DNA of 64,000 nucleotides, taken from Candidatus Udaeobacter sp. (GTDB lineage Bacteria > Patescibacteriota > Patescibacteriia > Magasanikbacterales > GWA2-37-8). The stretch's first letter is position 1. Every line of letters starts with the position of its first letter. The notes beneath the pieces are model-generated. The model saw only the letters and a list, made by a program, of their open reading frames with translations, searched no databases and had not been told where the DNA came from. The stretch covers positions 41,734-105,733 of the forward strand of contig DATION010000007.1 of NCBI GenBank assembly GCA_035473115.1, written 5' to 3'. The position numbers and the translations under genes were made by a program. Positions 898 through 46,943 of the stretch are shown here, piece by piece.

Positions 898-1123
898 TCT
901 GTGTATCCTGCCTTCTTTTTACCGCTCTGTACTCCTGGTTTTACTTCTTACTTTTTTCTCTTGAGGATTCAAGAGTGAGAGGATAGTATCATAAAAGCTA
1001 ATATTAAGCAAAGGTAGGGGTGTGGATGAGTTTTTTATGTTTTATTTTATTTTGACCAGCAAATTATAATATGGTACAAAAGATATTCGCGAGAACGTTG
1101 ACAACAATCAGAGAGGATAAGTC

Positions 1124-1990: not shown

Positions 1991-2051
1991 AAAGGCGCTA
2001 AATAGTTAGGCTAGTCAAGACGAATCTATCATGGCTAGCAATCGCAGTAGA

Positions 2052-13300: not shown

Positions 13301-13962
13301 TGTCTAAATCCAAAGGCAATGTTATCAATCCGGACGATATGGTTGAGCAGTTTGGCGCGGATGCACTTCGGACTTATATTATGTTTATGGGTCCGTTTGA
13401 TCAGGCCGTTGAGTGGGATATCAATGGTTTGATTGGTGTAAAACGGTTTTTGGATAAGGTTTGGAATTTGCAAAGTAAGATCGCCAAAGAAAACGAAAAA
13501 AGTTCAACTGTCAGTTTGATTGCCAAGGCGACCAAAAAAGTAACTGATTGTATTGATATGATGAAATTCAATACAGCTGTGTCAGCTTTAATGGAGCTTA
13601 GCAATGAACTTTATAAGGAAGAAAAGATTGATCTGTATGCTTATCAAAATTTTATCAAACTTCTATCTCCATTTGCGCCTCATTTGGCTCAAGAGCTTTG
13701 GGAAAAATTTGGTGATAAAAATGAATTGGTGTTTTCTTCTTGGCCTAAATATCATGAGGAAGATCTTAAAGAAGAGACTCTAACTCTGGCAGTACAAATA
13801 AATGGCAAACTACGTGATACTATTTTGGTAAGCGCAGAAATTTCCGAAGACGAAGCTAAAAAAATAGCTCTGGCCAGTGAAAAAGTCCAAAAATGGCTGG
13901 AAGGCAAAGAGCCAAAAAAAGTAATTTATGTAAAAGGAAAGTTAGTTAGCATCGTTGTTTAG
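10342..13962 (+). CDS. leuS: Leucyl-tRNA synthetase carrying two inserted domains: a HAD-like hydrolase and a YdeN/RBBP9-type alpha/beta serine hydrolase
   Basis: HIGH (HVGHPRP) and KMSKS motifs, the CP1 editing motif VPAHDERD and the return to the catalytic core (RLRDW..RQRYWGEPIP). A HAD fold (FDFDGVIGDT motif I, VISAGS, FTDSKAD) sits between ITEVIQ and NSDFLNGL. A GHSLG serine hydrolase sits between the FCENC and KCPQCGG zinc-knuckle halves. Confidence 0.85.
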   Translation: MKKSVQYNPKKIEKKWQKYWETNKTFEVTEDKTKDKFYSLIEFPYPSGEGLHVGHPRPFTAMDVVSRKKRMEGKNVLFPIGFDSFGLPTENYAIKTGQPPAKVTKKNIANFTRQLKMLGYSFDWSRVVDTSDPKYYKWTQWLFLQFFKHGLAYKKNQPINWCPKDKIGLANEEVVNGCCERCGTAVEKRNKEQWMLAITKYADKLLDGLNDVDYIDRARVQQENWIGKSEGAEIVFPLRMIPGQSDDKHSVKVFTTRPDTIFGATFIAISPELAKKWLEVGWQTNDKVKKYIEETILLRAAVTDREEKAKTGIDTGIKAVNPVNNQEVPVWITNYVLGDFGTGAIMGVPAHDERDGDFAKKFDLPITEVIQLKENKTKHLIFDFDGVIGDTWEAGIETRIKMGDVKNREEAIEANNLYFNRKPVHTKNHNLTEEEMKGLHLWMQRYGEIMAKTTFPLFDAFISEIKKIPNTKIAVISAGSGLYMRERSANSGLNPTHVLSFEDHHSKEEKIEQVCKDWGVNIKDIYYFTDSKADVYELEGCMDQKKLIGCAWGYCGYDALRELLPENQVLKEAKDISKLFAQEKLVEKEVMVNSDFLNGLSVTEAKEKVISWLKEKSFGKGQTQYKLRDWVFSRQRYWGEPIPLVFCENCKNKKQKVLMIHGFESSGDNIWFPWMKSELEKNGYEVFAPTVRNPNHGSVKDWVADLLPYMEQLDENDVIIGHSLGSKAALHLLEKTGKKIGHLYLVASAIGTIQNRDWDELRAKWPKSDIDSLQAFWHAPVDYKKISKLVRSINLIRSSDDKNIPASTHTDLPPGWLVQTWNGFGHFMHLEIPELLREILTSKNTGWIPLPESELPLKLPKVEKYQPTDNGESPLAAMEKWVNTKCPQCGGSAKRETDTMPNWAGSSWYSLRYADPHNDQEFASQEKLNYWAPVDWYNGGMEHVVLHLLYSRFWNIFLHDIGLVPHSEPYAKRTAHGMILAKGGEKMSKSKGNVINPDDMVEQFGADALRTYIMFMGPFDQAVEWDINGLIGVKRFLDKVWNLQSKIAKENEKSSTVSLIAKATKKVTDCIDMMKFNTAVSALMELSNELYKEEKIDLYAYQNFIKLLSPFAPHLAQELWEKFGDKNELVFSSWPKYHEEDLKEETLTLAVQINGKLRDTILVSAEISEDEAKKIALASEKVQKWLEGKEPKKVIYVKGKLVSIVV

Positions 13963-32300: not shown

Positions 32301-35300
32301 AAAATATTTTTAATAATAATTTTGAAGAAACCCCGGCAGCTATGGCTCTAAAAGATTGGGGACCGGCAGCCAATATCTCTGTATCTTTAGAATCTACTCA
32401 TGCGGGCGAACATTCTTTGTCTTATAACGGCACAGCCGCGGTCTATAAAAATCTATCTTTAACTCCAAGCAAAAGTTATGACATAACTTTTTGGGCTAAA
32501 GGCAGCGTTGGAGCTAAGGCGACTGTTATTTTGCAAAATGACAGTGTTGTCACTTTGGGTGACGCTAGCGTAGGTGACGTTTGGCAATTTTATCACTTTG
32601 GTCCGGTAGAACTGGGCGGAACAGCTACCAGCACTCAGCTTAAGTTTTCGATCAACGGACAGTTGTTTATAGATAATGTTAGCCTAAAAGAAGTTACTGA
32701 TTATACTTATTTAGTTAAAAATACCTTAAAAGTTAATCCGGTTTGTGACAGCAATTTAGATGATAATTTACCGGGCGAAGCGCTGGGTTGTTCGGCTTAC
32801 AAAACTCCGGATGACAAACCAGCTTACTTAACTAAGTTTACTTCTCTTTGCCGAGAAAAAGCTATCGGTTGTACAGCTCTATACGATACGCGTAAAACTC
32901 CGGATGAACCTGGTCCGCGCGCTTATAATGTTTGGTTCTCCGGAGAAGGCGGTACTAGTGTTGCCAAAACTATTGGCGGTCAAAATTATAGTTGCCAAGT
33001 TCCGGTCGGCCAAATTGGCTGTTACGTTAATACAGTTGGCGCTACTTTAAGTACAATTACTGCTGCTGGCGGAGAGGTTGTTACTTCCACAATTTATGTT
33101 CAGCCAGACACACCTTTATCATCACCGATATATTTGGTTGCCAATCAAGAAGCTACTTGTAACGCAGTTGATTTAGGCTGTGTATCTGCTGGCAGATTGG
33201 TACAGACTCCAACCGGAGCAACTTATGAAAATATTCTTATAAAAAATGATCCGGCTTTGTACGATACTACCCTTTGTCAGAAAGAAGCGGTTGGCTGTAA
33301 TACTTACACCTCGGCCAATGGCGCTTTGTACTTTAAAGATCCAGCTACTATCGGACAAAAAATTTGCGCTTACAGAGAAAATGTTTTCCTTAACGGCTCA
33401 AATTATAGCGGCTGGTTCTGGAAAAATGTTGGCAAATGTTCAGCGAGCGGTAATTTATGTACGACCGATAAAGATTGTGGCAGCAGCGGCGGCACTTGCG
33501 CTGGTTTAGACGAGCAACCATGTTATCCAAATTATCTACAGACGGGTAATAATTATGGCCTGTGGTCGTACGGTGTAACCAGTTCATATAATAATTTTGT
33601 AGGTGAATGTCCTTCAACACAAAGCGGCTGTACCGAATTTATTGATCATAATGATAATAATAAAGTCTATGATTTAATTAATGATGATCGAATGAAAGCA
33701 TTGCAAAGCGGCTGCAATGGACAGATTAGTGAAAAATCTGGCTGTATCTTGTTTGATAAAACAGATTTGCCAAATAAATTATGGAATACTGCCCAGTCCT
33801 ACGCCAATAGCGTCAAATTAAATAATAGTCTAGTTGGGCCGGTGGCCAGCAATTCCGGAGATCCTAATGATGCTAATATAATTTTGAAAGTAGATCGGGA
33901 CAGAGAATGCGGTGAATGGCTGCAATGTCGATCATCACATCGCGTATTTGATTCTCAAACCGGAAATTATAAAGAAATCTGTGATGCTATTGGCAGGTGT
34001 AATAAGAGTCCGGAATCAGCCGAAAAAGGCGATATTACCAACTGTGCCAACTGGGTCAGTTCGCAAGAATTAGTTAATCAGGTTTTAACCGACGATGCTT
34101 ATCGTAACCGAAACACGGATTGGACCGGTCAAGAGTTTAGTGGTTACAGTATTTTGAATTATTATCCAGTAGAAGAACTATCAGAAGTAAATTTTGGTGG
34201 TAATTCCGCGACCGATCAACAGTGGAGGTTGGCAAAAAAAGTTCCATGCGGCGGCGGATCTAACTGTGCTTCCAGTGTTTTCACCGAAGATTTTGCTTGT
34301 AACACGACCGGCTTAGCTTGCGGACGAGGCAATGCTGGAATTTGCCAAAACCATATTTGTTTGTCTAACCCTAATGGAACTACTGCCGATGTTACTCATC
34401 AATCGATCGGTCAATCTTGCCGCGCCTATCCGGAAGAAACTTCTCCATTCCCTAATTCCGAACCAATTGGCAACTCCTCAGTATATGGATCTGTAAATTT
34501 ATGCAATGAAACTGCCGGTTTTATTACCGACAAAACCAAAGCGGCGGCTTGTGATTGTAATTACACCAAGATTAATTATGGTGATAGCTTTACCAAGTAT
34601 TGGGATTTTAATAACCCAAATAGCAATGGTATTCTGAAACCGGATGGAACTTTGGCCAAAGGAATAGTTAGTGGTATCTGTTCCGGCGGAGTTAGCGCCG
34701 GACTAGTATGCGGTACAGACAGTGATTGTACTGGCGGCAGCTGTCAGAAATTAGGCAAGCAGGCTCGCCTGATCGGCTGGCACGGCTATTGTATTGAGCC
34801 GGATATTTCTAGGCCGTTAAATGCGGAACCGAATAATTTTGCTTGTTTAACCTGGTTCCCGGTTGATACTATTATGGGCTCTCCGGACATTAATAGTCAG
34901 CACGTAGAAGCTGGTTTCCAGGCATCAAGCGCTGGTGGAAAATATTATTGTTTGGACGCGCAAGGAAATCAGCAATTTGACTCCGCCGCTCAGCAAAATA
35001 ATTATGATAAACTTTTAGGTACAAAAACTATTGCTCGTCCCGGTAGTGTAAATAACAGCTGTACTGATACTAGTGGCCCTTGCTCAAGTTGTGTTAGCAA
35101 TGGCTGTTTTACCAATCCTTTTACCAGAGAAAAAAGAGTCATCGGTAATCTTTCCTCACAAAATATTTTCTTAGATGGTATTGATTATATTAAGATAGTC
35201 ACTAAGAGTGGAGATAATAACTGGTTGGGCAACAGAACTTTTTATATTAGAAATGGTTTAAAAACAAAATATAATGGCCCGCAGTGGAGTGTGGTCGGCA

Positions 35301-37009
35301 AAGAAGCGCCACCTGCGCAGCAGCTTAAGGGTGAATCTCTTAATTTAGGATTTGGTCCATACGCTGCATCCGACGGTACGGATCAAAGCAAAAATGCGGA
35401 GTGGTTTTTAAGATACGATGATGGTGAAGGTGATGGTACTGATAATTGGCAATTTGGCGATCCGGCCCAACAAGACATAACGGCTGCCGGATTTACCGAC
35501 CTTTTAATTTCCAATAACTCCGTTCCACCACCAGTGCCAGTAAATGGTGGAAGTAATTGTTCTGTAACCGGAGGAGTAGTAGGTAATCTAGATGCAGAAG
35601 GCAGAGATAATATACAGCTTTGTGTTGGTGATCACGATGATCATGATGATGGCTGCGCGGTAAGAGTTAAATTTAATAATGGAAAATTAGATAGAGTAAA
35701 CTTGGTATGTTACACCGATGATAATGGAGACACCGAATCCGCTACTGCTGATGTTTATGTTGGTTTGCGTGAAACCTGTACCCGTATTGCTCAAACTGAA
35801 GCAGTGCCTTATAGCAGTGTAGGCTGGACAGATCATTTATGGAAAAATACGAATTATATAGTAAGCCAGCCCGATCTGCCATATTTGATTTTTATACCAA
35901 ATATTCTTAATTATCCATTTTCGTTATTAAACGAACCGTTTGGCAGTCTGGCTGTAAATTCATTAGCTCCAAACAAATTAATTAACATATTTACTCACTA
36001 CAATAAAACCACTTTTGATCCGCCGCCAGCGATTACAGGTTTTCCGTATGGCTGTGATGGTGTTTGTGCAGATTTAAGATCTGCCAATCCGGAAGGAACA
36101 CCTGGTCCGGCAAGTAATCAAGGAATAGTCGAGGGAAAATTATTTCTGTCAACTATTTTTGCTAAAATAGATAGTGTTTGGAGTTGGAATCAATCAGTTG
36201 GTGGTTATGAACAAGACAGCAACTGGGAAGATACATTTAATCCTAACCCAACCAATAGGCCATATAATTTTACTGCTGAAACAAACTGGACATCCCAAGG
36301 CCGAGCGCCAAAAATTCATTCTCTAGGCACTTGTAAAAAAGGCGATAAATGTTTGGAAACTAATACCGATGGTTTTACTTTAAACGGAAAATCATCCGGA
36401 GACGTTGTATTCCCGGATAGAGTCGCTCCGGTAAATATTAAATTCTTTGGATTTGCCGACAAAAACCAAATGCCAATTAAGAAGATGCAAGTAGATTGGG
36501 GAGATGGCGATAAAGTTTCTTTAGATGGTTATTTCCGCAATAAACGAGGAGAAGTAAATGGTGTTTGCGGAACCAATAATACCTGTTTTGTTTCCAGTTC
36601 TGCCGGAGATATTAACACCAAGCAATCTTGCGCTTCTAACAATGATTGCCGCTACTTGGATAACTGTTTTGCCGAAAATATATCTCCAAATTTTGGTCAG
36701 ATAGCCGGTCGAACTTGTGATAGTGCTTATTTCCGTTTTGATCACGTTTACCAATGTTTGCGCGGCGGCTCTGGTTGGACAAGTTCTTGTCCCGATGCTC
36801 AAACTCAATCTTTATCTGGCGGCTGTTGTGTTTTCAAACCAAAAGTACAGATAAAAGATAATTGGGGCTGGTGTAATGGAACTTGTGTCGGAGGACCGGG
36901 AGGAAATGGTTGTTATGATAAAAGTTGGCTGCCAGGAAACCAGGATGAGTGTCAAACTTCTGGAGCTTACACAACGTTTAATGGAAAAGTTATAGTAGCT
37001 CCGGAATAA
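29315..37009 (+). CDS. Giant (2564 aa) secreted cysteine-rich surface protein with a CBM-like beta-sandwich module
   Basis: Signal peptide ending VQPAQA; uninterrupted 7.7-kb ORF; hundreds of Cys/Gly/Asn residues; a CBM4/9-like segment (…YKNLSLTPSKSYDITFWAKGSVGAKATVILQN…QLFIDNVSLKEV). Confidence 0.7.
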   Translation: MQKFNKFALKILLLIFTFVTIAGSLSFVQPAQAIPVEVVADAPSTMDKVLDQIALFLKTATVNIAVQSFAYFMRRVSYDSAVWLASGGKGETPFAHTKTFGNYISDVADNAAGVAIEQLGKPYGLNLCKIPDPKIDLAMRIGLNYQFLSQTVVKPTCTWQSFQKDVLNADNWKSQFGSVDDVAKKFNVAFSVDQSDIGILLSATEKIDNIVAQQTTAETLQRQEGQGVKDKKTLISDNISTNGNLIAHDIQSLTPSEQQKKAEQGFWSTVGTGLTGAISGAGSLFLNTLLNKMVENYRNKGMFPFGACIGDSGDPSCKGVQNNLLNAEGQISQGGRQGAQALFADFLTPPNVQIDRYDILGSFSSCPPTSPGPENCVVDSGLAQAAQETSVGKPITIADALAKNWLHGEWKLLSPERSADQTDVNCYQRAYCYANIAKLRKSRILPLGFEIAALNSNPDTPWTLKQVVDGFNDCNFIKDANGNVVGVDNDPINKPFCHLIDPNWVVKAPALKCNFLAFGATPFFRGTPNRAQECADLSTCVAYDKNGNCSNQGYCTRERNVWKIDAAKCDSQFRTCQSFQDSTGKDVSYLYRTLDTAYCNQDNVGCAEYSLKQDNNGSWTNYAKNDLNSAGENSAIYLNNKISTNCSANSDGCASFQVASTSDKLYLRQAPYYLQCYDTNPSTLAIDWPQTNSDLAKLPTKSACNNFSQACIPDEVNCNSYNPVSYVGTAIPGKFTPATVVENQIVWNDQCDKRCVGYSAYREIPSNYSDGQAVSYIIPSSGSKCSAIDEGCTSFTNLSATVGGLEKVEHFSYLRPCILPDTTKQKNFYTYEGSAVGGYQLKGFVLEKNSDGSPKYFYRTNEDLVGYDSVCSESLYKQGLASPDCRQFNDDKGAVYYKLLSKTIAVSQSCTPYRLNDTELRPVNLSQADCLTQKGNWDSAAGKCSVCFQNGEYRDGQCFYSGLPGDVQNTAGISKTCAAEVNSCRAYKGNAGNNVKNIFNNNFEETPAAMALKDWGPAANISVSLESTHAGEHSLSYNGTAAVYKNLSLTPSKSYDITFWAKGSVGAKATVILQNDSVVTLGDASVGDVWQFYHFGPVELGGTATSTQLKFSINGQLFIDNVSLKEVTDYTYLVKNTLKVNPVCDSNLDDNLPGEALGCSAYKTPDDKPAYLTKFTSLCREKAIGCTALYDTRKTPDEPGPRAYNVWFSGEGGTSVAKTIGGQNYSCQVPVGQIGCYVNTVGATLSTITAAGGEVVTSTIYVQPDTPLSSPIYLVANQEATCNAVDLGCVSAGRLVQTPTGATYENILIKNDPALYDTTLCQKEAVGCNTYTSANGALYFKDPATIGQKICAYRENVFLNGSNYSGWFWKNVGKCSASGNLCTTDKDCGSSGGTCAGLDEQPCYPNYLQTGNNYGLWSYGVTSSYNNFVGECPSTQSGCTEFIDHNDNNKVYDLINDDRMKALQSGCNGQISEKSGCILFDKTDLPNKLWNTAQSYANSVKLNNSLVGPVASNSGDPNDANIILKVDRDRECGEWLQCRSSHRVFDSQTGNYKEICDAIGRCNKSPESAEKGDITNCANWVSSQELVNQVLTDDAYRNRNTDWTGQEFSGYSILNYYPVEELSEVNFGGNSATDQQWRLAKKVPCGGGSNCASSVFTEDFACNTTGLACGRGNAGICQNHICLSNPNGTTADVTHQSIGQSCRAYPEETSPFPNSEPIGNSSVYGSVNLCNETAGFITDKTKAAACDCNYTKINYGDSFTKYWDFNNPNSNGILKPDGTLAKGIVSGICSGGVSAGLVCGTDSDCTGGSCQKLGKQARLIGWHGYCIEPDISRPLNAEPNNFACLTWFPVDTIMGSPDINSQHVEAGFQASSAGGKYYCLDAQGNQQFDSAAQQNNYDKLLGTKTIARPGSVNNSCTDTSGPCSSCVSNGCFTNPFTREKRVIGNLSSQNIFLDGIDYIKIVTKSGDNNWLGNRTFYIRNGLKTKYNGPQWSVVGKEAPPAQQLKGESLNLGFGPYAASDGTDQSKNAEWFLRYDDGEGDGTDNWQFGDPAQQDITAAGFTDLLISNNSVPPPVPVNGGSNCSVTGGVVGNLDAEGRDNIQLCVGDHDDHDDGCAVRVKFNNGKLDRVNLVCYTDDNGDTESATADVYVGLRETCTRIAQTEAVPYSSVGWTDHLWKNTNYIVSQPDLPYLIFIPNILNYPFSLLNEPFGSLAVNSLAPNKLINIFTHYNKTTFDPPPAITGFPYGCDGVCADLRSANPEGTPGPASNQGIVEGKLFLSTIFAKIDSVWSWNQSVGGYEQDSNWEDTFNPNPTNRPYNFTAETNWTSQGRAPKIHSLGTCKKGDKCLETNTDGFTLNGKSSGDVVFPDRVAPVNIKFFGFADKNQMPIKKMQVDWGDGDKVSLDGYFRNKRGEVNGVCGTNNTCFVSSSAGDINTKQSCASNNDCRYLDNCFAENISPNFGQIAGRTCDSAYFRFDHVYQCLRGGSGWTSSCPDAQTQSLSGGCCVFKPKVQIKDNWGWCNGTCVGGPGGNGCYDKSWLPGNQDECQTSGAYTTFNGKVIVAPE

Positions 37010-37023
37010 AAATAACTAAATAA

Positions 37024-37052
37024 AAAATCTCGCTAGTATTGGCGAGATTTTT
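37024..37052. terminator. Bidirectional rho-independent terminator after the giant gene
   Basis: aatctcgc-tagtattg-gcgagatt perfect hairpin flanked by A- and T-runs. Confidence 0.7.
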
Positions 37053-37162
37053 TATTCTACTCAATAGAAGATTTTCTTCTGCTAAGTGGATGTGTGCGCT
37101 ACTGATTTCTCAGCAGCGCACGGGTTGATGGTGGAGGGTGGATGTGGAAGGAACGAGGGGGT

Positions 37163-37660
37163 CTAGTTGGCATTTTGGAAGCAGGTGAGAGTCGTATCTT
37201 GACTCACCACCATCACCAGTTTGTTGACGAGATTATCGTCACTCCTGGTGATTGTCACCTGACTCATCTCCTTGGCTCCGCTACCGGCGATGCTCAAAGA
37301 GCAAATGCCGTTGTTAGACGACGTCAACGTGACATCGTAGTTCCCGCTCCAGTTGGAGCAGGTCCATTGTCTCGTCATCATCCAGCTGTAGCTGGCACAT
37401 GGATTGGCTTGGGGTGCATCAGGTGCACCGGCGTCGGGGGGCGTCATCGCTGAGCCCGATCCGGAGCCGGTCATCACGCTGCCATTGCCGTCGTCGTCAT
37501 CGCCGCTGGTCGTGCTGTCGGTAGCACAGCCGCTGCTGAATGCCATGGCACAGATGCCGAGGATCAGCACTCCGATCGAGACCACACGTGCCCATGTGTA
37601 GTAGTTGTGGATCTCTTCGGTGGTCTGGTTGCTCGTGCTGTAACCGTTCGGGTTCTTCAT
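37163..37660 (-). CDS. Hypothetical lipoprotein in a GC-rich patch
   Basis: Strong SD GGAGGA 4 nt before the ATG (MKNPNG...); TM/signal then AFSSGC lipobox; Asp/Gly/Ser-rich; ~55% GC. Confidence 0.5.
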   Translation of the reverse strand: MKNPNGYSTSNQTTEEIHNYYTWARVVSIGVLILGICAMAFSSGCATDSTTSGDDDDGNGSVMTGSGSGSAMTPPDAGAPDAPQANPCASYSWMMTRQWTCSNWSGNYDVTLTSSNNGICSLSIAGSGAKEMSQVTITRSDDNLVNKLVMVVSQDTTLTCFQNAN

Positions 37661-37715
37661 CGTATCCTCCTGAGTTTGTGTGCCGGTTGGCACGTTGGTT
37701 GCTATGTCGTTGGTA

Positions 37716-37857
37716 TTCGAGCTTGAATCTAATTAGCACTTTTGCTAAGCAAACTTAAGCTCGAATATCTTGTTTTTTCCACCATCTTATTGGCTAATCT
37801 TAGAGAAATCTCTAATCTTAGCACTTTTGTAAAGAGCGGTTGTCAGTAACTGACAAC
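37716..37857. promoter_or_regulatory. Divergent control region with operator-like palindromes between the lipoprotein gene and the T4SS-like cluster
   Basis: ~52-bp near-perfect palindrome centred on TTAGCAnnnnTGCTAA (37733-37748), a second ttagcacttttg copy at 37818, and the perfect 19-bp palindrome gttgtcagtaactgacaac (37839-37857). Confidence 0.4.
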
Positions 37858-38050
37858 AAGGTATATTACACCTTTTTTGGGTTTTTGTCAATGTCTGTTT
37901 TTTGTTCCCAATTTTATTCTTGTGTAAGGCAAAATAGAAGAAAAATAGCTTTACAACTACGTTGGGTTTTAAAAGTGGAAAAAAATACTTTTCCACTTTG
38001 CTCGTACCTAGTAATTGTGGTACAATTAAGTTGATAATTTTTCTTTTTTC

Positions 38051-41000
38051 ATGCTTGTCATACTCAATAAATTAAACTCTTATTTTTCTAAGTTTTGGCT
38101 GCTTTTAAAGCCGCGCCGCAGGCTCGGATTGGTTAGTTTTGTTATCTTAACTTCTTTGCTATTGGTAGTTTGGTTTGTTAGTACCAGTACAGCTCAGGCC
38201 GGAGTTATTGATGGCATAAGAGATTTATTTACCAGTTTGATATTTTTGGTAGCCGGTTTATTTATTAAACTGACGTTTTTTTTATTAAAATTTGTTATCG
38301 AAATTGCCGGCTATAACAGCTTCATAGATTCCTCGGCGGTGATTGTCGGCTGGGTAATGGTGCGCGATATAACCAATATGTTTTTTGTGGTTATTTTGCT
38401 GCTCATATCTTTTGGCACTATCCTAGGTTTAGAACAATACGAATATAAAAAATTATTAGTCAAACTGCTCATTGCCGCTATTGTGGTAAATTTTAGTCGA
38501 ATCATTTGCGGTATTATTATTGATATTGCTCAAGTGGTAATGATTACTTTTGTTAATGGTATTGCTGCTACTGCCGGAGGTAATTTAGTCAGTATGTTTG
38601 GGGTAGACAAGATTTTTAAATTAACCGGCAGCGCCCAAGGTATAGCGCAGCAAGGCTCCACATTTTTGGCCGCGGTGGCTGCCATTGGATTTTCTTCCAT
38701 CATGATGATGACGATGTTAACTTTTCTGTTTTTATTATTGGCACGCATGGTGGCATTGTGGATTTTAATTGTACTTTCTCCATTTGCTTTTGTTTTAAAT
38801 GTTTTGCCGCAAACCCAAAAATATGCGGGTCAATGGTGGGACGAGTTTGGCGGCAATGTCGTGGCCGGACCGATTGTCGCTTTTTTTCTTTGGTTAGCTT
38901 TTGTTACCGTCGGCAATGGTCGAATAAACAATGAGATTTCGGCCGGTAGTTCTCAACCACTTACTCAAGAAGGCGCAGAAAATTCTCCGGAAACTTCTAC
39001 TGGTATTACCGATATAATGAGTTGGGCCCAGATGGCTAATTTTGCGATTGCTATCGGTATGTTGCTTACCGGCGCTAAGGTGGCTCAGCAACTTGGCGCG
39101 GCTGGCGGATCTTTAATGAGTAAAGCCGGTGATTTTGGCAAGAGAGTGGCAATGGTTGCTTCTGGTCTTACTGCGGCACGCTGGGCTGGTGGCAAAGCTT
39201 TGGCAGCTGGAAAGGCGACTGGCAAGTTTGCTTTAATGAAAGCGCCATTGATTGGCGGTGAGGCTTGGCAGCGAAGAGGTCGTAGAATTAGAGCTGAAGC
39301 TTCTGGCAGATATTATGATTGGGTAGGAAAAAGAACAATTAAGGCTGGTAAAATTGCAAAACAATTGGCTGTTAATGAAAAAGGTAAATATATAATAAAA
39401 GGTACAGCAGAAAACTCTACTCCAGAATTAGACAAAAATGGCAAGCCTATTCTTGATGAGCATGGTGAGATTAAGTATAAAGATATAAAGCAGAGTGGTC
39501 CTATGGATTGGTTTAGAAGAATGAAAGCCAGGGCGCAGTTAGCTGTTGGACCAGGTTTTTCGACATATAACGATGAGTATCTTACAGATATGGAAACCAC
39601 TGTAAAATATAAAAAGGAACGCTTAGAGCATATGGTCAGCACCAGTAGCTTAAGGGTTGGTTTAGAAAAACGTAAAGCTGAAGAAATGCTTCATGGCTAT
39701 GAAGAAACTGGAAAAGAGATTAAATCTGGTAGAACTGCCAGAATGCAAGCCAGAAGACAAGAAATAAACGAGATAATTGAAAATGGGGTTGATGTTGATT
39801 CTAAACTACGTAAAAAAGGCTTAAATAGTAATGAAATATTTGAAGCTAAAGAATTTTATCAGAGAACAAGAAAAGCTGAGTCTGGTAAGGCTACAGCTAA
39901 AGTTACCAGTGAAGAAACTAATGCCATAAAAAACCTTAAGGAAGCGGAAGTGTTAGAAGGCTATATGGCTTCTAAAGGAGCTGCTCAAGAATCTCGAACT
40001 GCTGCTTTGAAAGCGGAAACAAAACAGATTGATGATAAGTTAAATGCGGAGAGAGAAATAAAAGAATTAGAAGCCATACGAGAATTGATTAGAGAAGGTG
40101 GATTTGGACATGAAAAGCAGAAAGATATCACAGCCAGCAAAGCTATGTTAGAGCAGATTACTTTTGATATCAATCAAGATAAAGATTTGGCTTTAGCTAT
40201 TGCCAGAGATCAGTATTTAAAAGCTCAATACAGAGACAGTGAAGCTCTAAACGAGCAGAATGTGTTGGCAAAACAAGCAAAAGAAAGAATTGAAAAACAA
40301 TCGGTTGGTACCGATTACCCAAGATCAAAAGCCAGAGTAGCCAGCTTGTTAAACCAAAAAAACGATGCATTTGCCGAATTGGAAGCTGCCAAGTTAGCCG
40401 GTGATTCTGATAAAATTAAAATAGCTACTAAAAAATTTGAGCAAAGCGAAAAAAGTTTATCCGAAATGCAGATCGGTAACTGGGAGCAGCACGGTTCGAT
40501 CGGAGCTGGTAATATGGCCGAAGTCGTCTCCAAAATTGATCCCGAGTTGTTAAAAGGCGTAAGCATTGATCCTGCAGATACTAAATCTGTCAGAAAAGTC
40601 CAAGCCGCTATATTTACATCTTTAACTGGAGATAAAGTAGACGCGTCAGGCGCAGGTGTTAATGCCGCAGTTGAGAAATTTAACAAAATGCATGGTGCCC
40701 GTTCGCAGGCAATGTTGGAACAGCTCAGATTGGCGCTCGATAAAGCTGCTGGTCAGGGTGTATTTTCGGTAGCTGGAGTATTGCAAACAGAATTAGGCAG
40801 TGACGGCAGAATTTCAACTAAAGTAGCCGATGTAGACAATGCGGATGAAAAAATAAGAGATAGAGTTGTATCTTATATAAAAAGCCGAAGAGAAGCAGCC
40901 AGATCAGCCGCAAAAATAACAACCATCAGCGCCGGTTTGGATGGAACAGTTGATATCAATAGCGAAGGTAAAGCAGTAGTTGAATCGCCAGAATCAATAA

Positions 41001-41293
41001 AAATTATTACTAACTTATTATCGCCGCTTACTTCTACCAGATTAGATAGTGTCGACGAATACGTCAGAAGCGGTTTGGCTGGAATATTAAAAAATTCAAC
41101 TGATAAAGCATTGGCAGAGTTAAAAAATAGTCTAAGTCAGCAAGGAGTTGCCAGAGATAAGGGAGCTTTGGCTACCTTGCTAAGCGATGCTTTGCGTAAG
41201 GCAGGGGATGATATTAAAAAAGAAAACAAAGAATTGATAGAAAATTGGATTAAAGAATTCGGTCCAAGCGTAAAAGCCAAAAAAACAAAATAA
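38051..41293 (+). CDS. VirB6/TrbL-like polytopic membrane protein with a ~700-aa coiled-coil/Lys-Glu-rich C-terminal extension
   Basis: ~7 TM helices in the first ~330 aa (the Gram-positive T4SS VirB6-like pattern), then a long hydrophilic tail. Confidence 0.6.
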   Translation: MLVILNKLNSYFSKFWLLLKPRRRLGLVSFVILTSLLLVVWFVSTSTAQAGVIDGIRDLFTSLIFLVAGLFIKLTFFLLKFVIEIAGYNSFIDSSAVIVGWVMVRDITNMFFVVILLLISFGTILGLEQYEYKKLLVKLLIAAIVVNFSRIICGIIIDIAQVVMITFVNGIAATAGGNLVSMFGVDKIFKLTGSAQGIAQQGSTFLAAVAAIGFSSIMMMTMLTFLFLLLARMVALWILIVLSPFAFVLNVLPQTQKYAGQWWDEFGGNVVAGPIVAFFLWLAFVTVGNGRINNEISAGSSQPLTQEGAENSPETSTGITDIMSWAQMANFAIAIGMLLTGAKVAQQLGAAGGSLMSKAGDFGKRVAMVASGLTAARWAGGKALAAGKATGKFALMKAPLIGGEAWQRRGRRIRAEASGRYYDWVGKRTIKAGKIAKQLAVNEKGKYIIKGTAENSTPELDKNGKPILDEHGEIKYKDIKQSGPMDWFRRMKARAQLAVGPGFSTYNDEYLTDMETTVKYKKERLEHMVSTSSLRVGLEKRKAEEMLHGYEETGKEIKSGRTARMQARRQEINEIIENGVDVDSKLRKKGLNSNEIFEAKEFYQRTRKAESGKATAKVTSEETNAIKNLKEAEVLEGYMASKGAAQESRTAALKAETKQIDDKLNAEREIKELEAIRELIREGGFGHEKQKDITASKAMLEQITFDINQDKDLALAIARDQYLKAQYRDSEALNEQNVLAKQAKERIEKQSVGTDYPRSKARVASLLNQKNDAFAELEAAKLAGDSDKIKIATKKFEQSEKSLSEMQIGNWEQHGSIGAGNMAEVVSKIDPELLKGVSIDPADTKSVRKVQAAIFTSLTGDKVDASGAGVNAAVEKFNKMHGARSQAMLEQLRLALDKAAGQGVFSVAGVLQTELGSDGRISTKVADVDNADEKIRDRVVSYIKSRREAARSAAKITTISAGLDGTVDINSEGKAVVESPESIKIITNLLSPLTSTRLDSVDEYVRSGLAGILKNSTDKALAELKNSLSQQGVARDKGALATLLSDALRKAGDDIKKENKELIENWIKEFGPSVKAKKTK

Positions 41294-41303
41294 TTATTAG
41301 TTT

Positions 41304-42302
41304 ATGAAATTGTCGGTTAGAGAAATGACAATGGAAGCGTTTGAAAATCTTGAAAAAGAATTAAGAGCTTCGCATATTGATATTTCAGCCATGCAAGAAA
41401 CATGGCAATCTTTGGATGCGTACTTTAGAAATTCCTCATTGGCTGAAGATGAAAGATTTAGATGGACTTATTTTAGAATTTATACTGAACTAACCTGGAA
41501 AATGTTTGGCGCTCAGAACCCGGATTTTATAGTCAATATGGCTATAGCTAGGCAAATTCCGATGGCGCTGCAGCTTGATTTTAATGTTTTTGAAAGCATT
41601 GTTAGTTATCTCGGATCACAAGCTTTGGTTGAAGCGGAAGTACAAAGCCTGTATCTGAAAATTCAGAAAGCATTTTTGGAATCAGAGGCTGTTATTGGGG
41701 TTTGGCAAGGAGAGAATATTACCGTCTCAGAAGTGATCAAAGAAATTAATTCCGTTTATAACAGCGGTGATTCTTTGGAACAAGCTGATTTTGAGAGCCG
41801 GTTATTGCAAATAATGTTTTCTAATGAAGAAGCGGAAAAATACTCCACGGTTGATCCGGAAGATGGTAAAGGTAGATTTTTAGATCTAGTCAGTTTTTTT
41901 CAAACTTTTGCCCAAGAAGATATCTCATATATTGTTGATAGTTTGTTAAATCCGGAAAAATATGAAAATAATGCCGCTGCTCAAGAGGAACTTTCACCAG
42001 AGTCCGAAATTGAAGAAACTTCTGAGTCTGCAGCTGTCGCGCCGCAACCAGCTTCTTCTCGGCTAGAATCAAAATCAGCTTTTGAGCAGACTTCGGTAGT
42101 AGAGCCGCCAGCCCGACTTGCTATGGCGCAGATTAAATCCCAGATTGAATCGCAATTTAAAAAAGATACAGAAGGGAACTTTGTTGATTTAGAAGGAGTT
42201 ATGGCCAAGTTAAGCGAGCTGGCTGATAAGTATAATGATCCAAAAATTGTCGAAGCAATATATTTTGATGAGCAAGACAATAAATTTAAATGGAATATAT
42301 AA
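41304..42302 (+). CDS. Hypothetical acidic cytoplasmic protein within the T4SS-like cluster
   Basis: 332 aa, no TM, no recognisable motif. Confidence 0.5.
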   Translation: MKLSVREMTMEAFENLEKELRASHIDISAMQETWQSLDAYFRNSSLAEDERFRWTYFRIYTELTWKMFGAQNPDFIVNMAIARQIPMALQLDFNVFESIVSYLGSQALVEAEVQSLYLKIQKAFLESEAVIGVWQGENITVSEVIKEINSVYNSGDSLEQADFESRLLQIMFSNEEAEKYSTVDPEDGKGRFLDLVSFFQTFAQEDISYIVDSLLNPEKYENNAAAQEELSPESEIEETSESAAVAPQPASSRLESKSAFEQTSVVEPPARLAMAQIKSQIESQFKKDTEGNFVDLEGVMAKLSELADKYNDPKIVEAIYFDEQDNKFKWNI

Positions 42303-42306
42303 AAAT

Positions 42307-43305
42307 ATGTCTGAGCCAATGGTTACAATAAAAAAACCGGATGGAACTTTTGCCAAAGTTTCTCTTAGCGAATTTAAAAAAGCACAGTCTGCACAGACAA
42401 AACCAAAAGAAGCTGCGAAGCCAAAGATGCCGGCTAGGAGTGGTTCTTTATTAGAAGAAAAATTAAAGCTAACAAATTCAACTCCTTTATTTAGTCCAAA
42501 GCGCGAAAAACAAGTTGAAGAAGTGATTTCTAAGTTAGGTTTTTCCGTCGCTTTAGAAATTTTGGGCAGATTAAAGAGTTTGGTTTTAGCTAAATTAAAA
42601 GATATAAAAAGTGAAGAAGAGATTCGTGAATTAATGTCTCGTTCCATAAAAAACGGCGGTTTAGGATTAACAGCTCAGCAAGTAGAAAAAATTATCAATC
42701 TTTGCGCAGAAGTGGATAGCCAAGAAGATGAGAAAATTTCTCAGACACCAGTTTTAAAAGGCAAGCCAGCGAATTTGGCCTTAATGGTAGAACCGCCCGA
42801 ATTGCCGGCTCTTATTGACGCTTTGCCCGCTGCGGCAAATAAAATGAAAATGCCTGAGCAAAAACAAACAAGACCTTTTGCCGCAGATTCCGATCCGATT
42901 TCTAATTTAATTAATAAAAGTATCGCCAGTGAGCCGGTTTTTAAGATTGATACTCGTCCTGCTGTAAAGCAATCCATGCAAGATATTACCGCTACTAGCG
43001 TGGAAATGGGGCCGGTAGAAGAGATTAGATCTGTGACTCTAGCTGATTTTAGAAGATTTTCCAGTAAGCCGGAAGAGGCGGCCAAAAGATTGCAGCAAAA
43101 AATGTTTAATCTGCAGGATGAATCTTTTGTTTGGTATTTGGAGGCTTTGGCTGGGTATCATGCCTCACCTTTATATACCGAATACGTTCAGGCAGTTTGT
43201 CAGTCTTTGGCTGAAAGAAAGTCGTTAGCCAATGTACTTACTATCAAAAATGGTATAAAATTAAACGAGGTAATAGCTCTGATTGAGATGGAGAAAAGTC
43301 TGTAA
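42307..43305 (+). CDS. Hypothetical protein within the T4SS-like cluster
   Basis: The ATG at 42307 lies just after the previous stop and is preferred over the track start at 42235; no known domain. Confidence 0.5.
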   Translation: MSEPMVTIKKPDGTFAKVSLSEFKKAQSAQTKPKEAAKPKMPARSGSLLEEKLKLTNSTPLFSPKREKQVEEVISKLGFSVALEILGRLKSLVLAKLKDIKSEEEIRELMSRSIKNGGLGLTAQQVEKIINLCAEVDSQEDEKISQTPVLKGKPANLALMVEPPELPALIDALPAAANKMKMPEQKQTRPFAADSDPISNLINKSIASEPVFKIDTRPAVKQSMQDITATSVEMGPVEEIRSVTLADFRRFSSKPEEAAKRLQQKMFNLQDESFVWYLEALAGYHASPLYTEYVQAVCQSLAERKSLANVLTIKNGIKLNEVIALIEMEKSL

Positions 43306-43325: not shown

Positions 43326-43751
43326 ATGGAACAATTTGTTGTCCCACAATTTATAGAAGTAGAAGATAAAATTTTTGGACCAGTAACTACTCGGCAGTTT
43401 CTTATTTTATTGTCTGCCGGTCTAGTTTTGTTTATAATTTTCAAATTAGCGGATGTAGCTTTATTTATTTTTTTAACCGTGCTTATCGGCGGCTCTGCTT
43501 TGGTATTAGCTTTTATCAAGATCAACGGACAGCCTTTTCATTATTTTTTACTGAATATAGTGCAAACAGTTCGCCGGCCTAGCCGCCGTCTTTGGTATAA
43601 AAGTTTTAGTAAAATTGAATTAGCAGAATCAATTAAATCTGGAAAAGTAGAAATAGTAGAGGTGGCTAGAGAAATTCCCAGAATGTCTTATAGCCGAATA
43701 CGGGATTTGTCTTTGGTGGTAAACACAGGAGGGTACTACAAGCCGGAATAA
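43326..43751 (+). CDS. PrgI/VirB3-like small membrane protein
   Basis: 141 aa with two adjacent TM helices (FLILLSAGLVLFIIF / VALFIFLTVLIGGSALVLAFI), immediately upstream of VirB4, as in Gram-positive T4SS. Confidence 0.55.
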   Translation: MEQFVVPQFIEVEDKIFGPVTTRQFLILLSAGLVLFIIFKLADVALFIFLTVLIGGSALVLAFIKINGQPFHYFLLNIVQTVRRPSRRLWYKSFSKIELAESIKSGKVEIVEVAREIPRMSYSRIRDLSLVVNTGGYYKPE

Positions 43752-43760
43752 TAAATTATT

Positions 43761-44438
43761 ATGGAAGAAAAACCTAAACAAAAGAAAATAAAATTTCCCA
43801 GCACTCAGCAGCACCTGCCCTTTGCGGAAATAAAATTTGATACAGTAATAATGAAAGACGGAACTTTACGCGCCGTGCTTATGGTTTCCAGTATAAATTT
43901 TGCTCTCAAAAATGAAGATGAGCAAAATGCCATTGTTTCATCCTATGTATCTTTTTTAAACGGTATTGATTTTCCTTTACAAATAGCTATTCAGTCTCGG
44001 CAGCTTTATATCAAGCCTTATTTAGAAAAATTATTAAAATTAGAGCGGGAACAGACAAATGAATTATTGCGGGTTCAGATAGCCGATTATCGTTCTTTTG
44101 TATCCGAACTTGTTAGTCTGGGCAAAATTATGAGCAAACAATTTTTTGTGATTGTGCCTTATGATCCGCTGTCCAACAAAAAACGAGGTTTTTGGTCAAG
44201 GATTGGTGAAGTCATTAACCCGGCTGTGACGGTGAAACTCAAAGACGAAAGATTCCAGCAGCGTAAACATGACTTGGATATGCGAGTCAGGCAAATTGAA
44301 TCTGGGTTAACTAGTATGAACTTGGAAGTAGTTCGTCTGGACACGCAATCGCTTATTGAATTATTTTATTCCACCTATAATCCGGATATTGCCTTTAGCG
44401 AGTTTTTAGCTCCGGTTAATCAATTACAAGTGGAGTAA
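43761..44438 (+). CDS. virB4: VirB4-like ATPase, N-terminal domain (separated from the C-terminal ATPase by two in-frame stops)
   Basis: VirB4 N-domain pattern (LPFAEIKFDTVIMKDGTLRAVLMVSSINF...); same reading frame as the next ORF, with TAA codons at 44439 and 44448. Confidence 0.6.
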   Translation: MEEKPKQKKIKFPSTQQHLPFAEIKFDTVIMKDGTLRAVLMVSSINFALKNEDEQNAIVSSYVSFLNGIDFPLQIAIQSRQLYIKPYLEKLLKLEREQTNELLRVQIADYRSFVSELVSLGKIMSKQFFVIVPYDPLSNKKRGFWSRIGEVINPAVTVKLKDERFQQRKHDLDMRVRQIESGLTSMNLEVVRLDTQSLIELFYSTYNPDIAFSEFLAPVNQLQVE

Positions 44439-44456
44439 GTGAGTTAAATTTATATT

Positions 44457-46325
44457 ATGGCTTTTAAACCAAAATTTGCGACTGGTCCAATGAAAAGAAA
44501 GGAAGACCTAGACGCTAAAAAATCCGCAGTGACCAAAAAAACTACTGAAGAATTAGTGACTCTTGAAGAAGAGAGAGTTTATCGTGAAGGCACAGTTTCC
44601 ATTAAAGATTTATTGGCGCCGTCGGCTTTTAATATTGAATCTAATTATTTAAAATTAGGCGACATATTTTGCCGGACAATTTTTGTGGTGACTTATCCGC
44701 GCTATATTTCTGTCGGTTGGAGTTCTCCCATTTTAAATTTATCCATCACTATGGATATAGGGATGTTCTTTTATCCGGTAAAATCCACGATAATTTTGAA
44801 GCAGTTAAGAAACAAAGTCGGAGCTTTGGAAGCTCAGCTTAATGCTGACTCAGAAAAAGGCGCGCCGCGAGATCCAACCCGCCAAACCGCTTTACGTGAT
44901 ATTGAACAATTACGCGATGATCTTACCCAAGGTACGGAACGGTTTTTCCAGTTTGCTTTTTACGTCACTGTTTATGCGAAGACTAAAGAAGAATTAGATC
45001 AAACATCGGAAGATGTAGAAAATATATTTGGTTCCAAGCTTATCAACAGCCGCAAGGTTTTGTATCAAGCAGAACAAGGCTTTAATTCTACTTTGCCTTT
45101 GGCTAACGATGAATTACTGATAGCTTTTAACCTTAATTCATCACCGATTGCAGCATCCTTTCCTTTTATTTCAGCCGAACTGACTTCAGATGATGGTATT
45201 TTGTACGGAGTTAATCGCCACAATAACAGCTTGATTCTTTTTGATCGGTTTTCTTTGCAGAATGCGAATATGGCTGTGTTTGCTACTTCCGGTGCTGGTA
45301 AAAGTTATGCTATTAAGTTAGAAATTTTGCGAACCATGATGATGGGTTCGGATATTATTGTGATTGATCCGGAAATGGAATATAAGCATTTGGCCGATGC
45401 CGTAGGCGGAACCTATATAAATATTTCCCTTTCTTCCGAAAGTAAAGTTAATCCGTTTGATTTACCGCGGCCTACCGGTGGCGAAGAATTTTCCACCGAA
45501 GATGTTATTCGCGGAGCGGTTATAACGGTAAAGGGTTTGTTGCGTATTATGCTTGGTAATTTAACTACTGAACAGGATTCAATAATAGATCGGGCTTTAA
45601 TAGAAACTTATGCCAAGAAAGATATTACGCCCGAAGCGGACCTAAGTGTCGTGCAGCCGCCGATAATTCAAGATCTACAAGAAATTTTGGAAGGTATGGA
45701 AGGTTCCGGAGATTTGGTTTTAAGGCTACAAAAATATACTCAAGGCACATTTAGCGGCTTGTTTAATTCCCCGACCAATGTTGATATGAAGAATCAACTA
45801 GTGGTTTTCAGCGTGCGTGATTTAGAAGATGAACTTCGGCCAATTGCTATTTATGCTATAATTAATTATATTTGGAATGTTGTCCGTTCCGAACGCAAAA
45901 AACGCATCTTGGTAATTGATGAGGCCTGGTGGCTGATGCAGCATGAAGACAGCGCCAGATTTATTTTTGCCTTAGTCAAACGCGCCCGTAAATATTACCT
46001 CGGTGTCACTACCATTACTCAAGATGTTAATGACTTCTTGCAATCTCAGTATGGTCAGGCGATTGTTACCAATTCCGCTTTGCAATTATTATTGCGTCAA
46101 TCTCCGGCAGCTATTGATCTGGTGCAGAAGGTCTTTATTTTAACCGAAGGTGAAAAGTATTTGTTATTAGAAAGCGGAGTCGGAGAGGGGATTTTCTTTG
46201 CCGGCAATAAGCACGCTGCTATTAAAGTGGTCGCTTCTTATACGGAAGACCAATTGGTAACCACCAATCCGGAACAGCTTTTGGAAATAGAAAGATCAAA
46301 AAAAGAATTTGAAAAACAAACCTAG
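44457..46325 (+). CDS. virB4: VirB4/TrbE/ConE-like type IV secretion ATPase, C-terminal ATPase domain
   Basis: Walker A FATSGAGKS; Walker B RILVIDEAWWLM (VirB4 hhhhDEAW signature); 622 aa. Confidence 0.8.
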   Translation: MAFKPKFATGPMKRKEDLDAKKSAVTKKTTEELVTLEEERVYREGTVSIKDLLAPSAFNIESNYLKLGDIFCRTIFVVTYPRYISVGWSSPILNLSITMDIGMFFYPVKSTIILKQLRNKVGALEAQLNADSEKGAPRDPTRQTALRDIEQLRDDLTQGTERFFQFAFYVTVYAKTKEELDQTSEDVENIFGSKLINSRKVLYQAEQGFNSTLPLANDELLIAFNLNSSPIAASFPFISAELTSDDGILYGVNRHNNSLILFDRFSLQNANMAVFATSGAGKSYAIKLEILRTMMMGSDIIVIDPEMEYKHLADAVGGTYINISLSSESKVNPFDLPRPTGGEEFSTEDVIRGAVITVKGLLRIMLGNLTTEQDSIIDRALIETYAKKDITPEADLSVVQPPIIQDLQEILEGMEGSGDLVLRLQKYTQGTFSGLFNSPTNVDMKNQLVVFSVRDLEDELRPIAIYAIINYIWNVVRSERKKRILVIDEAWWLMQHEDSARFIFALVKRARKYYLGVTTITQDVNDFLQSQYGQAIVTNSALQLLLRQSPAAIDLVQKVFILTEGEKYLLLESGVGEGIFFAGNKHAAIKVVASYTEDQLVTTNPEQLLEIERSKKEFEKQT

Positions 46326-46343: not shown

Positions 46344-46943
46344 ATGTCACTTCGCGCCCGTATTTTTATCATAGTTAGCATCCTGGTATTTTTTGTTTTG
46401 GTAGTCAGTATTTTTTTGATAGTCAGACAAAAAAAAATAAACGCTCCAGTTCCTCAAGTTGGAGTATCAGGCAATAGCTCAAGCGCCCAGAATAATGGGC
46501 AGCCAAGCAATCCCAATGCGGTGGGCGAGCAAGCGCCAGCCGGAGTATCAATTAAAAAACCAACTTCAATTGAAGTTGAAAAGAACGCGGTAGAGCAACT
46601 GGCCAAAGTTTTTATTGAACGTTACGGCACTTTTTCAACCGATAATAACTTTCAAAATATTAAGGATGTTTCCACTTTGGTTACTCAGTCTCTATGGTCA
46701 AAAATTAGCGCTTCTATTTCTTCTAAACCTGCAACCGGTTCTGCACAAAGTTTTGATGGTGTGACAACTAAAGTTATTAACGCTGATTTAACTGCTTGGT
46801 CAGATAGTAAAGCTTCGGTAGAGTTAAAATTAACTCGTACAGAAGAAAAGAACGGTTCAGTTAGCACTCGTTATCAAAATGTTTCTTTAGAATTGGTAAA
46901 AACAGACTCTCTTTGGTTGGTGGACAAGGTAACCTGGCATTAA
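46344..46943 (+). CDS. Bitopic membrane protein, putative VirB8-like (NTF2-fold) T4SS component
   Basis: N-terminal TM (IFIIVSILVFFVLVVSIFLIV) plus a ~130-aa C-terminal domain; position and topology match VirB8-like proteins (inference). Confidence 0.35.
   Translation: MSLRARIFIIVSILVFFVLVVSIFLIVRQKKINAPVPQVGVSGNSSSAQNNGQPSNPNAVGEQAPAGVSIKKPTSIEVEKNAVEQLAKVFIERYGTFSTDNNFQNIKDVSTLVTQSLWSKISASISSKPATGSAQSFDGVTTKVINADLTAWSDSKASVELKLTRTEEKNGSVSTRYQNVSLELVKTDSLWLVDKVTWH

What the first reader, a model, noticed from the sequence alone, without database searches (positions are those of the whole stretch)
43761..46325. VirB4 ATPase split into N-domain and ATPase ORFs by two in-frame TAA codons
The 225-aa and 622-aa ORFs are in the same frame, separated only by TAA (44439) and TAA (44448); together they equal a canonical ~850-aa VirB4. 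This is either a recent inactivation (pseudogene), a sequencing error, or a natural two-polypeptide VirB4, since the N-domain normally contacts VirB3, which here is the preceding gene.
Basis: seen in the sequence. Interest (0 to 1): 0.5.

Follow-up and report, generated by a model that had tools for sequence, protein, structure and literature searches.

The report
Naturally two-gene VirB4 (TrsD + ATPase)
The apparent break in this secretion-system motor gene is not damage or a sequencing error: candidate-phyla bacteria and some Gram-positive plasmids normally encode the motor as a small TrsD-like protein plus a shorter VirB4 ATPase, and this arrangement is already published.

Summary

It is not a broken gene.
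- All 79 orthologous Patescibacteria loci I could score have the same two genes with a stop between them.
- Spacers range from 1 nt to over 100 nt, and the relative frame is random (22/32/25). The shared frame here is coincidence.
- Both ORFs are under strong purifying selection (dN/dS 0.03-0.05).
- ORF2 always begins at a conserved start, M-[A/P]-F-K-P in most loci.
- ORF2 starts where pSK41 TrsE starts and lacks about 175 N-terminal residues that fused PrgJ has.
- The cut lies inside the VirB4 N-terminal domain, not at the N-domain/ATPase boundary.

Quiñonero-Coronel et al. 2025 (PMC12102498) already describe TrsD next to virB4 as the commonest T4SS component in Patescibacteria and report it as essential in one cultured strain. 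Verdict: real, ordinary, already known.

The parts
38051..41293 (+). 1080-aa polytopic membrane protein, a candidate VirB6-like channel subunit with a large C-terminal extension
   Evidence: One search finds 6-7 hydrophobic segments in the first ~290 residues. One search finds no Pfam match. The assignment rests only on topology and position in the cluster.
41304..43305 (+). Two uncharacterised cluster genes (41304..42302, 332 aa; 42235..43305, 356 aa, overlapping as called)
   Evidence: One search lists the ORFs. Searches give no significant family. One search finds no TM segments. Function unknown; they are listed because they lie between the VirB6-like and PrgI genes.
43326..43751 (+). PrgI family (VirB3-like) small membrane protein
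   Evidence: Pfam PF12666 PrgI, E 9.1e-11, 42.6 bits against a cut-off of 27; one strong TM segment at residues 46-64.
43761..44438 (+). TrsD-like protein (225 aa), the stand-alone N-proximal part of the VirB4 N-terminal domain
44439..44456 (+). 18-nt AT-rich intergenic spacer holding a second in-frame TAA (44445-44447)
   Evidence: Searches show the sequence. In orthologues the spacer is 1 nt to over 100 nt (median 11) and falls in any frame.
44457..46325 (+). VirB4-type conjugation/T4SS ATPase, short form (622 aa): distal half of the N-terminal domain plus the ATPase domain
   Evidence: NF045971 CD1110-family VirB4, 365.3 bits against a cut-off of 325, model positions 156-730 of 752; 4AG5 VirB4 C-terminal domain, E 8.9e-49, residues 244-602. 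Walker A GAGKS 45291-45305 and Walker B-like VIDEAW 45912-45929; conserved N-terminus at the start codon, M-[A/P]-F-K-P in most orthologues.
46344..46943 (+). 199-aa protein with one N-terminal TM segment, directly after virB4; role unknown
   Evidence: TM segment at residues 9-27; no family. Membership in the system is inferred from position only.

Best explanation
The two ORFs are two real, separately translated genes of the chromosomal type IV secretion system of a Patescibacteria (Magasanikbacteria-like) genome. The first is a TrsD-like protein and the second is a short-form VirB4 ATPase. They follow a PrgI/VirB3-like gene, in the same order as trsC-trsD-trsE of staphylococcal plasmid pSK41.

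TrsD corresponds to the N-proximal part of the N-terminal domain that fused VirB4 proteins (PrgJ, TrwK) carry in a single chain. ORF2 carries the rest of that domain plus the Walker A/B ATPase domain.

Shown here: the split is ancient, universal in the orthologues examined, and under purifying selection. Its position is the same as in pSK41.

Inferred: TrsD binds ORF2 in trans to rebuild a complete VirB4 N-terminal domain, and through it docks the ATPase hexamer onto the PrgI/VirB3 membrane protein. The short or overlapping junctions in many relatives (TAAtATG in 15 of 79) suggest coupled, roughly equimolar translation.
For: Conservation of the split:
- In 80 orthologous loci from independent assemblies, an ORF1 homologue sits directly upstream of the ORF2 homologue. 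A stop codon lies between them in all 79 that could be scored.
- Spacers run from 1 nt to over 100 nt and the relative frames are 22/32/25.
- Stop codons are TAA 52, TAG 17, TGA 10.

Selection and family size:
- dN/dS is 0.03-0.05 for ORF1 and 0.02-0.03 for ORF2 against the closest relatives, with synonymous sites near saturation.
- ORF1 has 4428 homologues; the best 120 are all stand-alone, nearly all 225-232 aa (range 195-245).
- A profile search of 1.84 billion representatives gives 2729 hits, and none of the best 150 is longer than 443 aa.

Collinearity with fused VirB4:
- ORF1 matches positions 97-220/894 and 6-78/752 of fused-VirB4 NCBIfam models. ORF2 matches positions 292-890 and 156-730 of the same models.
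- In Pfam TraC_F_IV, ORF1 covers profile positions 120-177 and ORF2 covers 274-360.
- ORF2 residue 50 aligns with PrgJ residue 225 but ORF2 residue 51 aligns with pSK41 TrsE residue 36.

Structure and context:
- The gene order PrgI / TrsD-like / short VirB4 also occurs in pSK41 and in Pontibacillus and C. perfringens plasmids.
- PMC12102498 counts 2272 TrsD homologues in Patescibacteria, 1664 of them next to virB4. It notes remote homology to the VirB4 N-terminus and reports TrsD as essential in Ca. S. epibionticum ML1.
Against: - Sequence homology between ORF1 and fused VirB4 N-termini is remote. hhalign of the ORF1 family against the single PrgJ sequence is not significant (E 0.47).
- The TrsD NCBIfam match (31.6 bits) is far below that model's curated cut-off of 200.
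- No physical interaction between TrsD, VirB4 and PrgI was tested. [quoted passage not shown]
- Read-level data for this particular assembly could not be inspected.
Confidence: 0.88

Rival explanations
1. Recent pseudogenisation: a once-continuous ~850-aa virB4 was inactivated by nonsense mutations.
For: The two ORFs share a frame and lie only 18 nt apart with two TAA codons between them. Their lengths add up to a canonical VirB4.
Against: All 79 scorable orthologous loci are split, and their frames are random. ORF1 dN/dS is 0.03-0.05. ORF2 has a conserved start and N-terminus. No fused protein appears among the best 120 or 150 relatives of ORF1.
Confidence: 0.01
2. A sequencing or assembly error created false stop codons.
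For: The exact protein is not on record elsewhere, and reads could not be inspected.
Against: It would take two independent stop codons plus a conserved ATG start. The same architecture appears in 80 independent assemblies, including relatives whose ORF2 is 90-93% identical (L001, L003, L004), each with a different spacer.
Confidence: 0.01
3. Programmed stop-codon readthrough or recoding makes a fused full-length VirB4 alongside the two separate products.
For: The same-frame arrangement in this window would allow it in principle.
Against: There are two consecutive TAA stops. Frames 1 and 2 occur in 57 of 79 orthologues. Spacers reach over 100 nt and contain further stops and hairpins. No conserved recoding signal is present.
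Confidence: 0.02
4. ORF1 is an accessory T4SS protein that merely sits next to virB4. It is not the detached N-terminal part of VirB4, and the short VirB4 simply lacks that region.
For: Sequence similarity to fused VirB4 N-termini is weak (E 0.47, sub-threshold scores). [quoted passage not shown]
Confidence: 0.08

Closest known systems
TrsD + TrsE of Staphylococcus aureus plasmids pSK41/pGO1 (MPF_FATA subclass pGO1). TraD + TraE of pIP501 is the same type, stated from general knowledge and not examined here.
   Same: The gene order is the same: VirB3-like (trsC/PrgI), a ~225-aa soluble protein, then a 620-670-aa VirB4. The ORF1 family aligns end to end with TrsD. ORF2 and TrsE start at the homologous position. 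The intergenic spacer is short in both (14 nt against 18 nt).
   Different: Identity is only about 25%. ORF1 scores far below the NCBIfam TrsD/TraD cut-off. The pSK41 system is plasmid-borne and conjugative. This one is chromosomal, sits among housekeeping genes, and has no relaxase in the cluster.
Chromosomal T4SS of Patescibacteria (Quiñonero-Coronel et al. 2025, PMC12102498; reported there as essential in Ca. Southlakia epibionticum ML1, citing Wang et al. 2023)
   Same: The window's closest relatives are Magasanikbacteria/Patescibacteria MAGs. The components are the same: TrsD next to virB4, PrgI/VirB3 upstream, and a candidate VirB6.
   Different: Nothing material; this is another instance. 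The paper reports TrsD abundance and association. It does not, in the sections I read, spell out that the partner VirB4 is N-terminally shortened at the same point as TrsE.
Fused VirB4 ATPases: PrgJ of pCF10 (796 aa), TrwK of R388 (823 aa)
   Same: The ATPase domain and the distal N-terminal domain are homologous. The preceding gene is PrgI/VirB3. The ORF1 model resembles part of TrwK.
   Different: These are one polypeptide instead of two. PrgJ carries about 175 extra N-terminal residues relative to ORF2.

Membership tests
VirB4-like conjugal transfer ATPase, CD1110 family (NF045971) - ORF2 | Score above the curated cut-off of the family model | tested here: met
   365.3 bits against a cut-off of 325, E 6.5e-109. 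Only model positions 156-730 of 752 are covered, so the N-terminal ~155 positions are missing.
VirB4-like conjugal transfer ATPase, CD1110 family (NF045971) - ORF2 | Walker A and Walker B motifs and a VirB4-type C-terminal ATPase domain | tested here: met
   GAGKS at residues 279-283 and VIDEAW at 486-491; 4AG5 VirB4 C-terminal domain, E 8.9e-49 over residues 244-602.
VirB4-like conjugal transfer ATPase, CD1110 family (NF045971) - ORF2 | Complete N-terminal domain in the same polypeptide | tested here: not met
   ORF2 lacks the first ~155 model positions, equivalent to ~175 residues of PrgJ. That region is supplied by the separate ORF1.
TrsD/TraD family conjugative transfer protein (NF041427) - ORF1 | Score above the curated cut-off of the subfamily model | tested here: not met
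   31.6 bits against a cut-off of 200 (E 1.4e-7). ORF1 is a distant relative, not a member of the narrow NCBIfam subfamily.
TrsD/TraD family conjugative transfer protein (NF041427) - ORF1 | Full-length homology to a prototype TrsD | tested here: inconclusive
   hhalign E 1.3e-4, probability 54%, 173 aligned columns covering ORF1 residues 14-207 and TrsD residues 33-216.
TrsD/TraD family conjugative transfer protein (NF041427) - ORF1 | Stand-alone ~200-230-aa soluble protein encoded between the VirB3-like gene and an N-terminally short VirB4 | tested here: met
   225 aa, no TM segment, flanked by PrgI and the 622-aa VirB4, as in pSK41 trsC-trsD-trsE.
Patescibacteria chromosomal T4SS (PMC12102498) | Patescibacteria host, with virB4 associated with TrsD and PrgI/VirB3 homologues | tested here: met
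   orthologues with 71-93% identity in Magasanikbacteria/Patescibacteria MAGs. Searches give the component families. One search shows chromosomal housekeeping neighbours.
Patescibacteria chromosomal T4SS (PMC12102498) | VirB6-like polytopic membrane subunit near virB4 | tested here: inconclusive
   the 1080-aa protein at 38051..41293 has 6-7 TM-like segments, but one search finds no family match.
Patescibacteria chromosomal T4SS (PMC12102498) | Requirement for epibiotic growth | not testable with these tools
   Known only for Ca. S. epibionticum ML1, as cited in PMC12102498.

The most novel reading that the evidence does not exclude
The cut falls at the same position in Patescibacteria, pSK41 and Bacillota megaplasmids. 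That points to a single ancient fission (or an ancestral unfused state) of the VirB4 N-terminal domain. TrsD would then be a detachable adaptor whose separate expression lets the cell regulate docking of the ATPase onto PrgI/VirB3. The long, genome-specific hairpins found in the trsD-virB4 spacer of about a quarter of relatives could tune the ratio of the two products. This would give TrsD, which currently has no assigned function, a defined structural role.
Probability: 0.3. Interest if true: 0.35.

Novelty: already known. Interest (0 to 1): 0.12.

Why it matters
For annotation, the pair should be called trsD-like plus virB4 (short form), not a virB4 pseudogene. Automated pipelines and human readers can easily flag it as a broken gene. 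The same-frame layout in this genome makes that mistake especially tempting.

Biologically, the T4SS of Patescibacteria is reported as essential for epibiotic growth in one cultured strain, and TrsD is its most widespread component. The complementarity shown here suggests a concrete structural role for TrsD that can be tested: TrsD plus a short VirB4 equals a fused VirB4, with the cut at the same point as in pSK41. This refines published knowledge; it is not a discovery.

Tried and rejected
- Pseudogene, sequencing-error and readthrough readings were rejected on comparative grounds.
- A direct phmmer search of ORF1 against PDB sequences found nothing meaningful (best E 1.3, an unrelated viral protein).
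- hhalign of the ORF1 family against the single PrgJ sequence was not significant. The short aligned stretch did fall in the expected N-terminal region (PrgJ 66-95).
- An exact-sequence lookup of ORF1 found no record, so the source genome could not be identified.
- Promoter and terminator scans gave only consensus-level matches close to shuffle expectation, with nothing at the junction.
- No tRNA or Rfam family was found in the window.
- My first spacer script hit an endless loop and was rerun. L014's 726-nt 'spacer' is a script artefact from picking the wrong upstream hit; the real junction there is a short spacer. L068 uses a GTG start.

Full report
**1. Observation**

The sequence is as described, apart from small coordinate slips.
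- ORF1 runs from ATG 43761 to TAA 44436-44438 (225 aa).
- The spacer reads GTG AGT TAA(44445-47) ATT TAT ATT.
- ORF2 runs from ATG 44457 to 46325 (622 aa), in the same frame.
- The window is about 39% GC, and the locus sits in a long run of + strand genes.

**2. What the two ORFs are**

ORF2 passes the curated cut-off of the CD1110-family VirB4 model (365 bits against 325). It covers only model positions 156-730 of 752. Residues 244-602 match the crystallised VirB4 C-terminal domain 4AG5 at E 8.9e-49. Walker A (GAGKS, residues 279-283) and a Walker B-like VIDEAW motif are present.

ORF1 gives sub-threshold but collinear matches:
- TrsD/TraD family, E 1.4e-7.
- Positions 97-220/894 and 6-78/752 of two fused-VirB4 models.
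- Pfam TraC_F_IV profile positions 120-177, where ORF2 covers positions 274-360 of the same profile.

The cut therefore lies inside the VirB4 N-terminal domain. ORF2 keeps about 240 pre-ATPase residues.

The gene just upstream (43326..43751) is a PrgI family (VirB3-like) membrane protein. Further upstream is a 1080-aa protein with 6-7 TM segments, a possible VirB6 analogue. Downstream lie a 199-aa single-TM protein and ComF.

**3. Is the split real and old?**

A scan of one genome per species returned 80 orthologous loci, nearly all from Patescibacteria/Magasanikbacteria MAGs. ORF2 identity is 71-93%.

Junction structure:
- In every locus an ORF1 homologue lies directly upstream.
- In the 79 loci I could score automatically, a stop codon separates the two genes (TAA 52, TAG 17, TGA 10).
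- Spacers run from 1 nt (TAAtATG, 15 loci) to over 100 nt, with a median of 11 nt.
- The relative frame is 0/1/2 = 22/32/25.
- The closest relatives already differ in spacer length: L001 has 43 nt, L003 has 24 nt and L004 has 25 nt.
- ORF2 homologues begin with a conserved N-terminus at the start codon, M-[A/P]-F-K-P in most loci.

The shared frame in this window is what one locus in three shows by chance.

Selection: Nei-Gojobori estimates against the nearest relatives give dN/dS of 0.03-0.05 for ORF1 and 0.02-0.03 for ORF2, with synonymous sites near saturation.

Family size:
- ORF1 has 4428 database homologues. The best 120 are all stand-alone proteins, nearly all of 225-232 aa (range 195-245).
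- A profile search of 1.84 billion representatives finds 2729 relatives. None of the best 150 is longer than 443 aa.

Pseudogene, sequencing error and programmed readthrough are therefore excluded for practical purposes. The missing purine-rich RBS is not informative, because only about 3 of 43 genes in the window have a Shine-Dalgarno-like motif.

**4. Relation to fused and split VirB4 elsewhere**

- ORF2 residue 50 aligns with residue 225 of fused PrgJ from pCF10 (796 aa, encoded directly after PrgI).
- ORF2 residue 51 aligns with residue 36 of pSK41 TrsE (672 aa).
- pSK41 has the order trsC (VirB3-like), trsD (227 aa), trsE, with a 14-nt spacer.
- The ORF1 family aligns end to end with pSK41 TrsD (hhalign E 1.3e-4, 173 columns).
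- The same order, PrgI / ORF1 homologue / 620-640-aa VirB4, is present on Pontibacillus and Clostridium perfringens plasmids.

**5. Mechanism**

Shown: there are two conserved cistrons. Their lengths and profile positions are complementary to a fused VirB4. The gene order after the VirB3-like gene is fixed.

Inferred: TrsD associates in trans with the remainder of the VirB4 N-terminal domain in ORF2 and mediates docking to PrgI/VirB3. This follows the role of the VirB4 N-terminal domain in the R388 structure, which I state from general knowledge and did not re-read here. The tight or 1-nt junctions in many relatives suggest translational coupling.

Confidence is about 0.9 that this is a natural TrsD + VirB4 pair, and about 0.6 for the specific docking role.

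**6. What is already known**

Quiñonero-Coronel et al. 2025 (PMC12102498) report the following:
- TrsD is the most abundant T4SS component in Patescibacteria: 2272 homologues, 1664 of them next to virB4.
[quoted passage not shown] - The Ca. S. epibionticum ML1 homologue is essential.

NCBIfam has a TrsD/TraD family, and the homologues carry a precomputed Pfam family, PF26593. The arrangement is therefore already known, and the window holds one more instance. The modest addition here is an explicit demonstration that the partner VirB4 is shortened at the same point as TrsE, together with the quantified variability of the junction.

**7. Verdict**

This is a real feature, correctly seen. It was over-read as a possible lesion. 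It is the normal, published two-gene form of VirB4 in this lineage. Interest is low (0.12).

Noticed in passing
L001-L080, the trsD-virB4 junctions (e.g. L048 5918-6000, L015 1653-1827, L021 3659-3760, L041 2780-2891): In 21 of 79 orthologous loci the spacer between trsD and virB4 is at least 60 nt. Most of these fold into long, genome-specific hairpins (z-scores down to -11 against shuffles). They may be REP/MITE-like insertions or mRNA-processing or stabilising elements that recur at the same junction. L065 has a ~480-nt insertion there with a small ORF. The window itself has only an 18-nt spacer.
   Followed up: partly
window 10342-13962 (+): The leucyl-tRNA synthetase is 1206 aa. It carries Pfam matches to a HAD_2 hydrolase (residues 380-535) and a Ser_hydrolase/alpha-beta hydrolase fold (residues 657-818) inside the synthetase body. 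These are unusual inserted domains.
   Followed up: no
window, all gene starts: Only about 3 of 43 genes have a Shine-Dalgarno-like motif at -5..-12. The leaders are AT-rich instead, so translation initiation in this genome is mostly non-SD.
   Followed up: partly
window 29315-37009 (+): A 2564-aa ORF with a signal-peptide-like N-terminus and no Pfam match lies about 1 kb upstream of the T4SS genes. It may be a giant surface or secreted protein.
   Followed up: no
window 37010-38050: About 1 kb without a convincing ORF. It has slightly higher GC (0.46) than its surroundings and lies between the giant ORF and the VirB6-like gene. There is a strong bidirectional terminator-like hairpin at 37018-37057 and no Rfam hit.
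   Followed up: no
window 41304-43305 (+): The two uncharacterised cluster ORFs overlap by 68 nt as called (41304..42302 and 42235..43305). The true start of the second is probably further downstream.
   Followed up: no
window 1-2000: GC is 0.50 against about 0.39 elsewhere. A minus-strand ORF of more than 306 aa runs off the left end. This may be foreign or compositionally distinct DNA.
   Followed up: no
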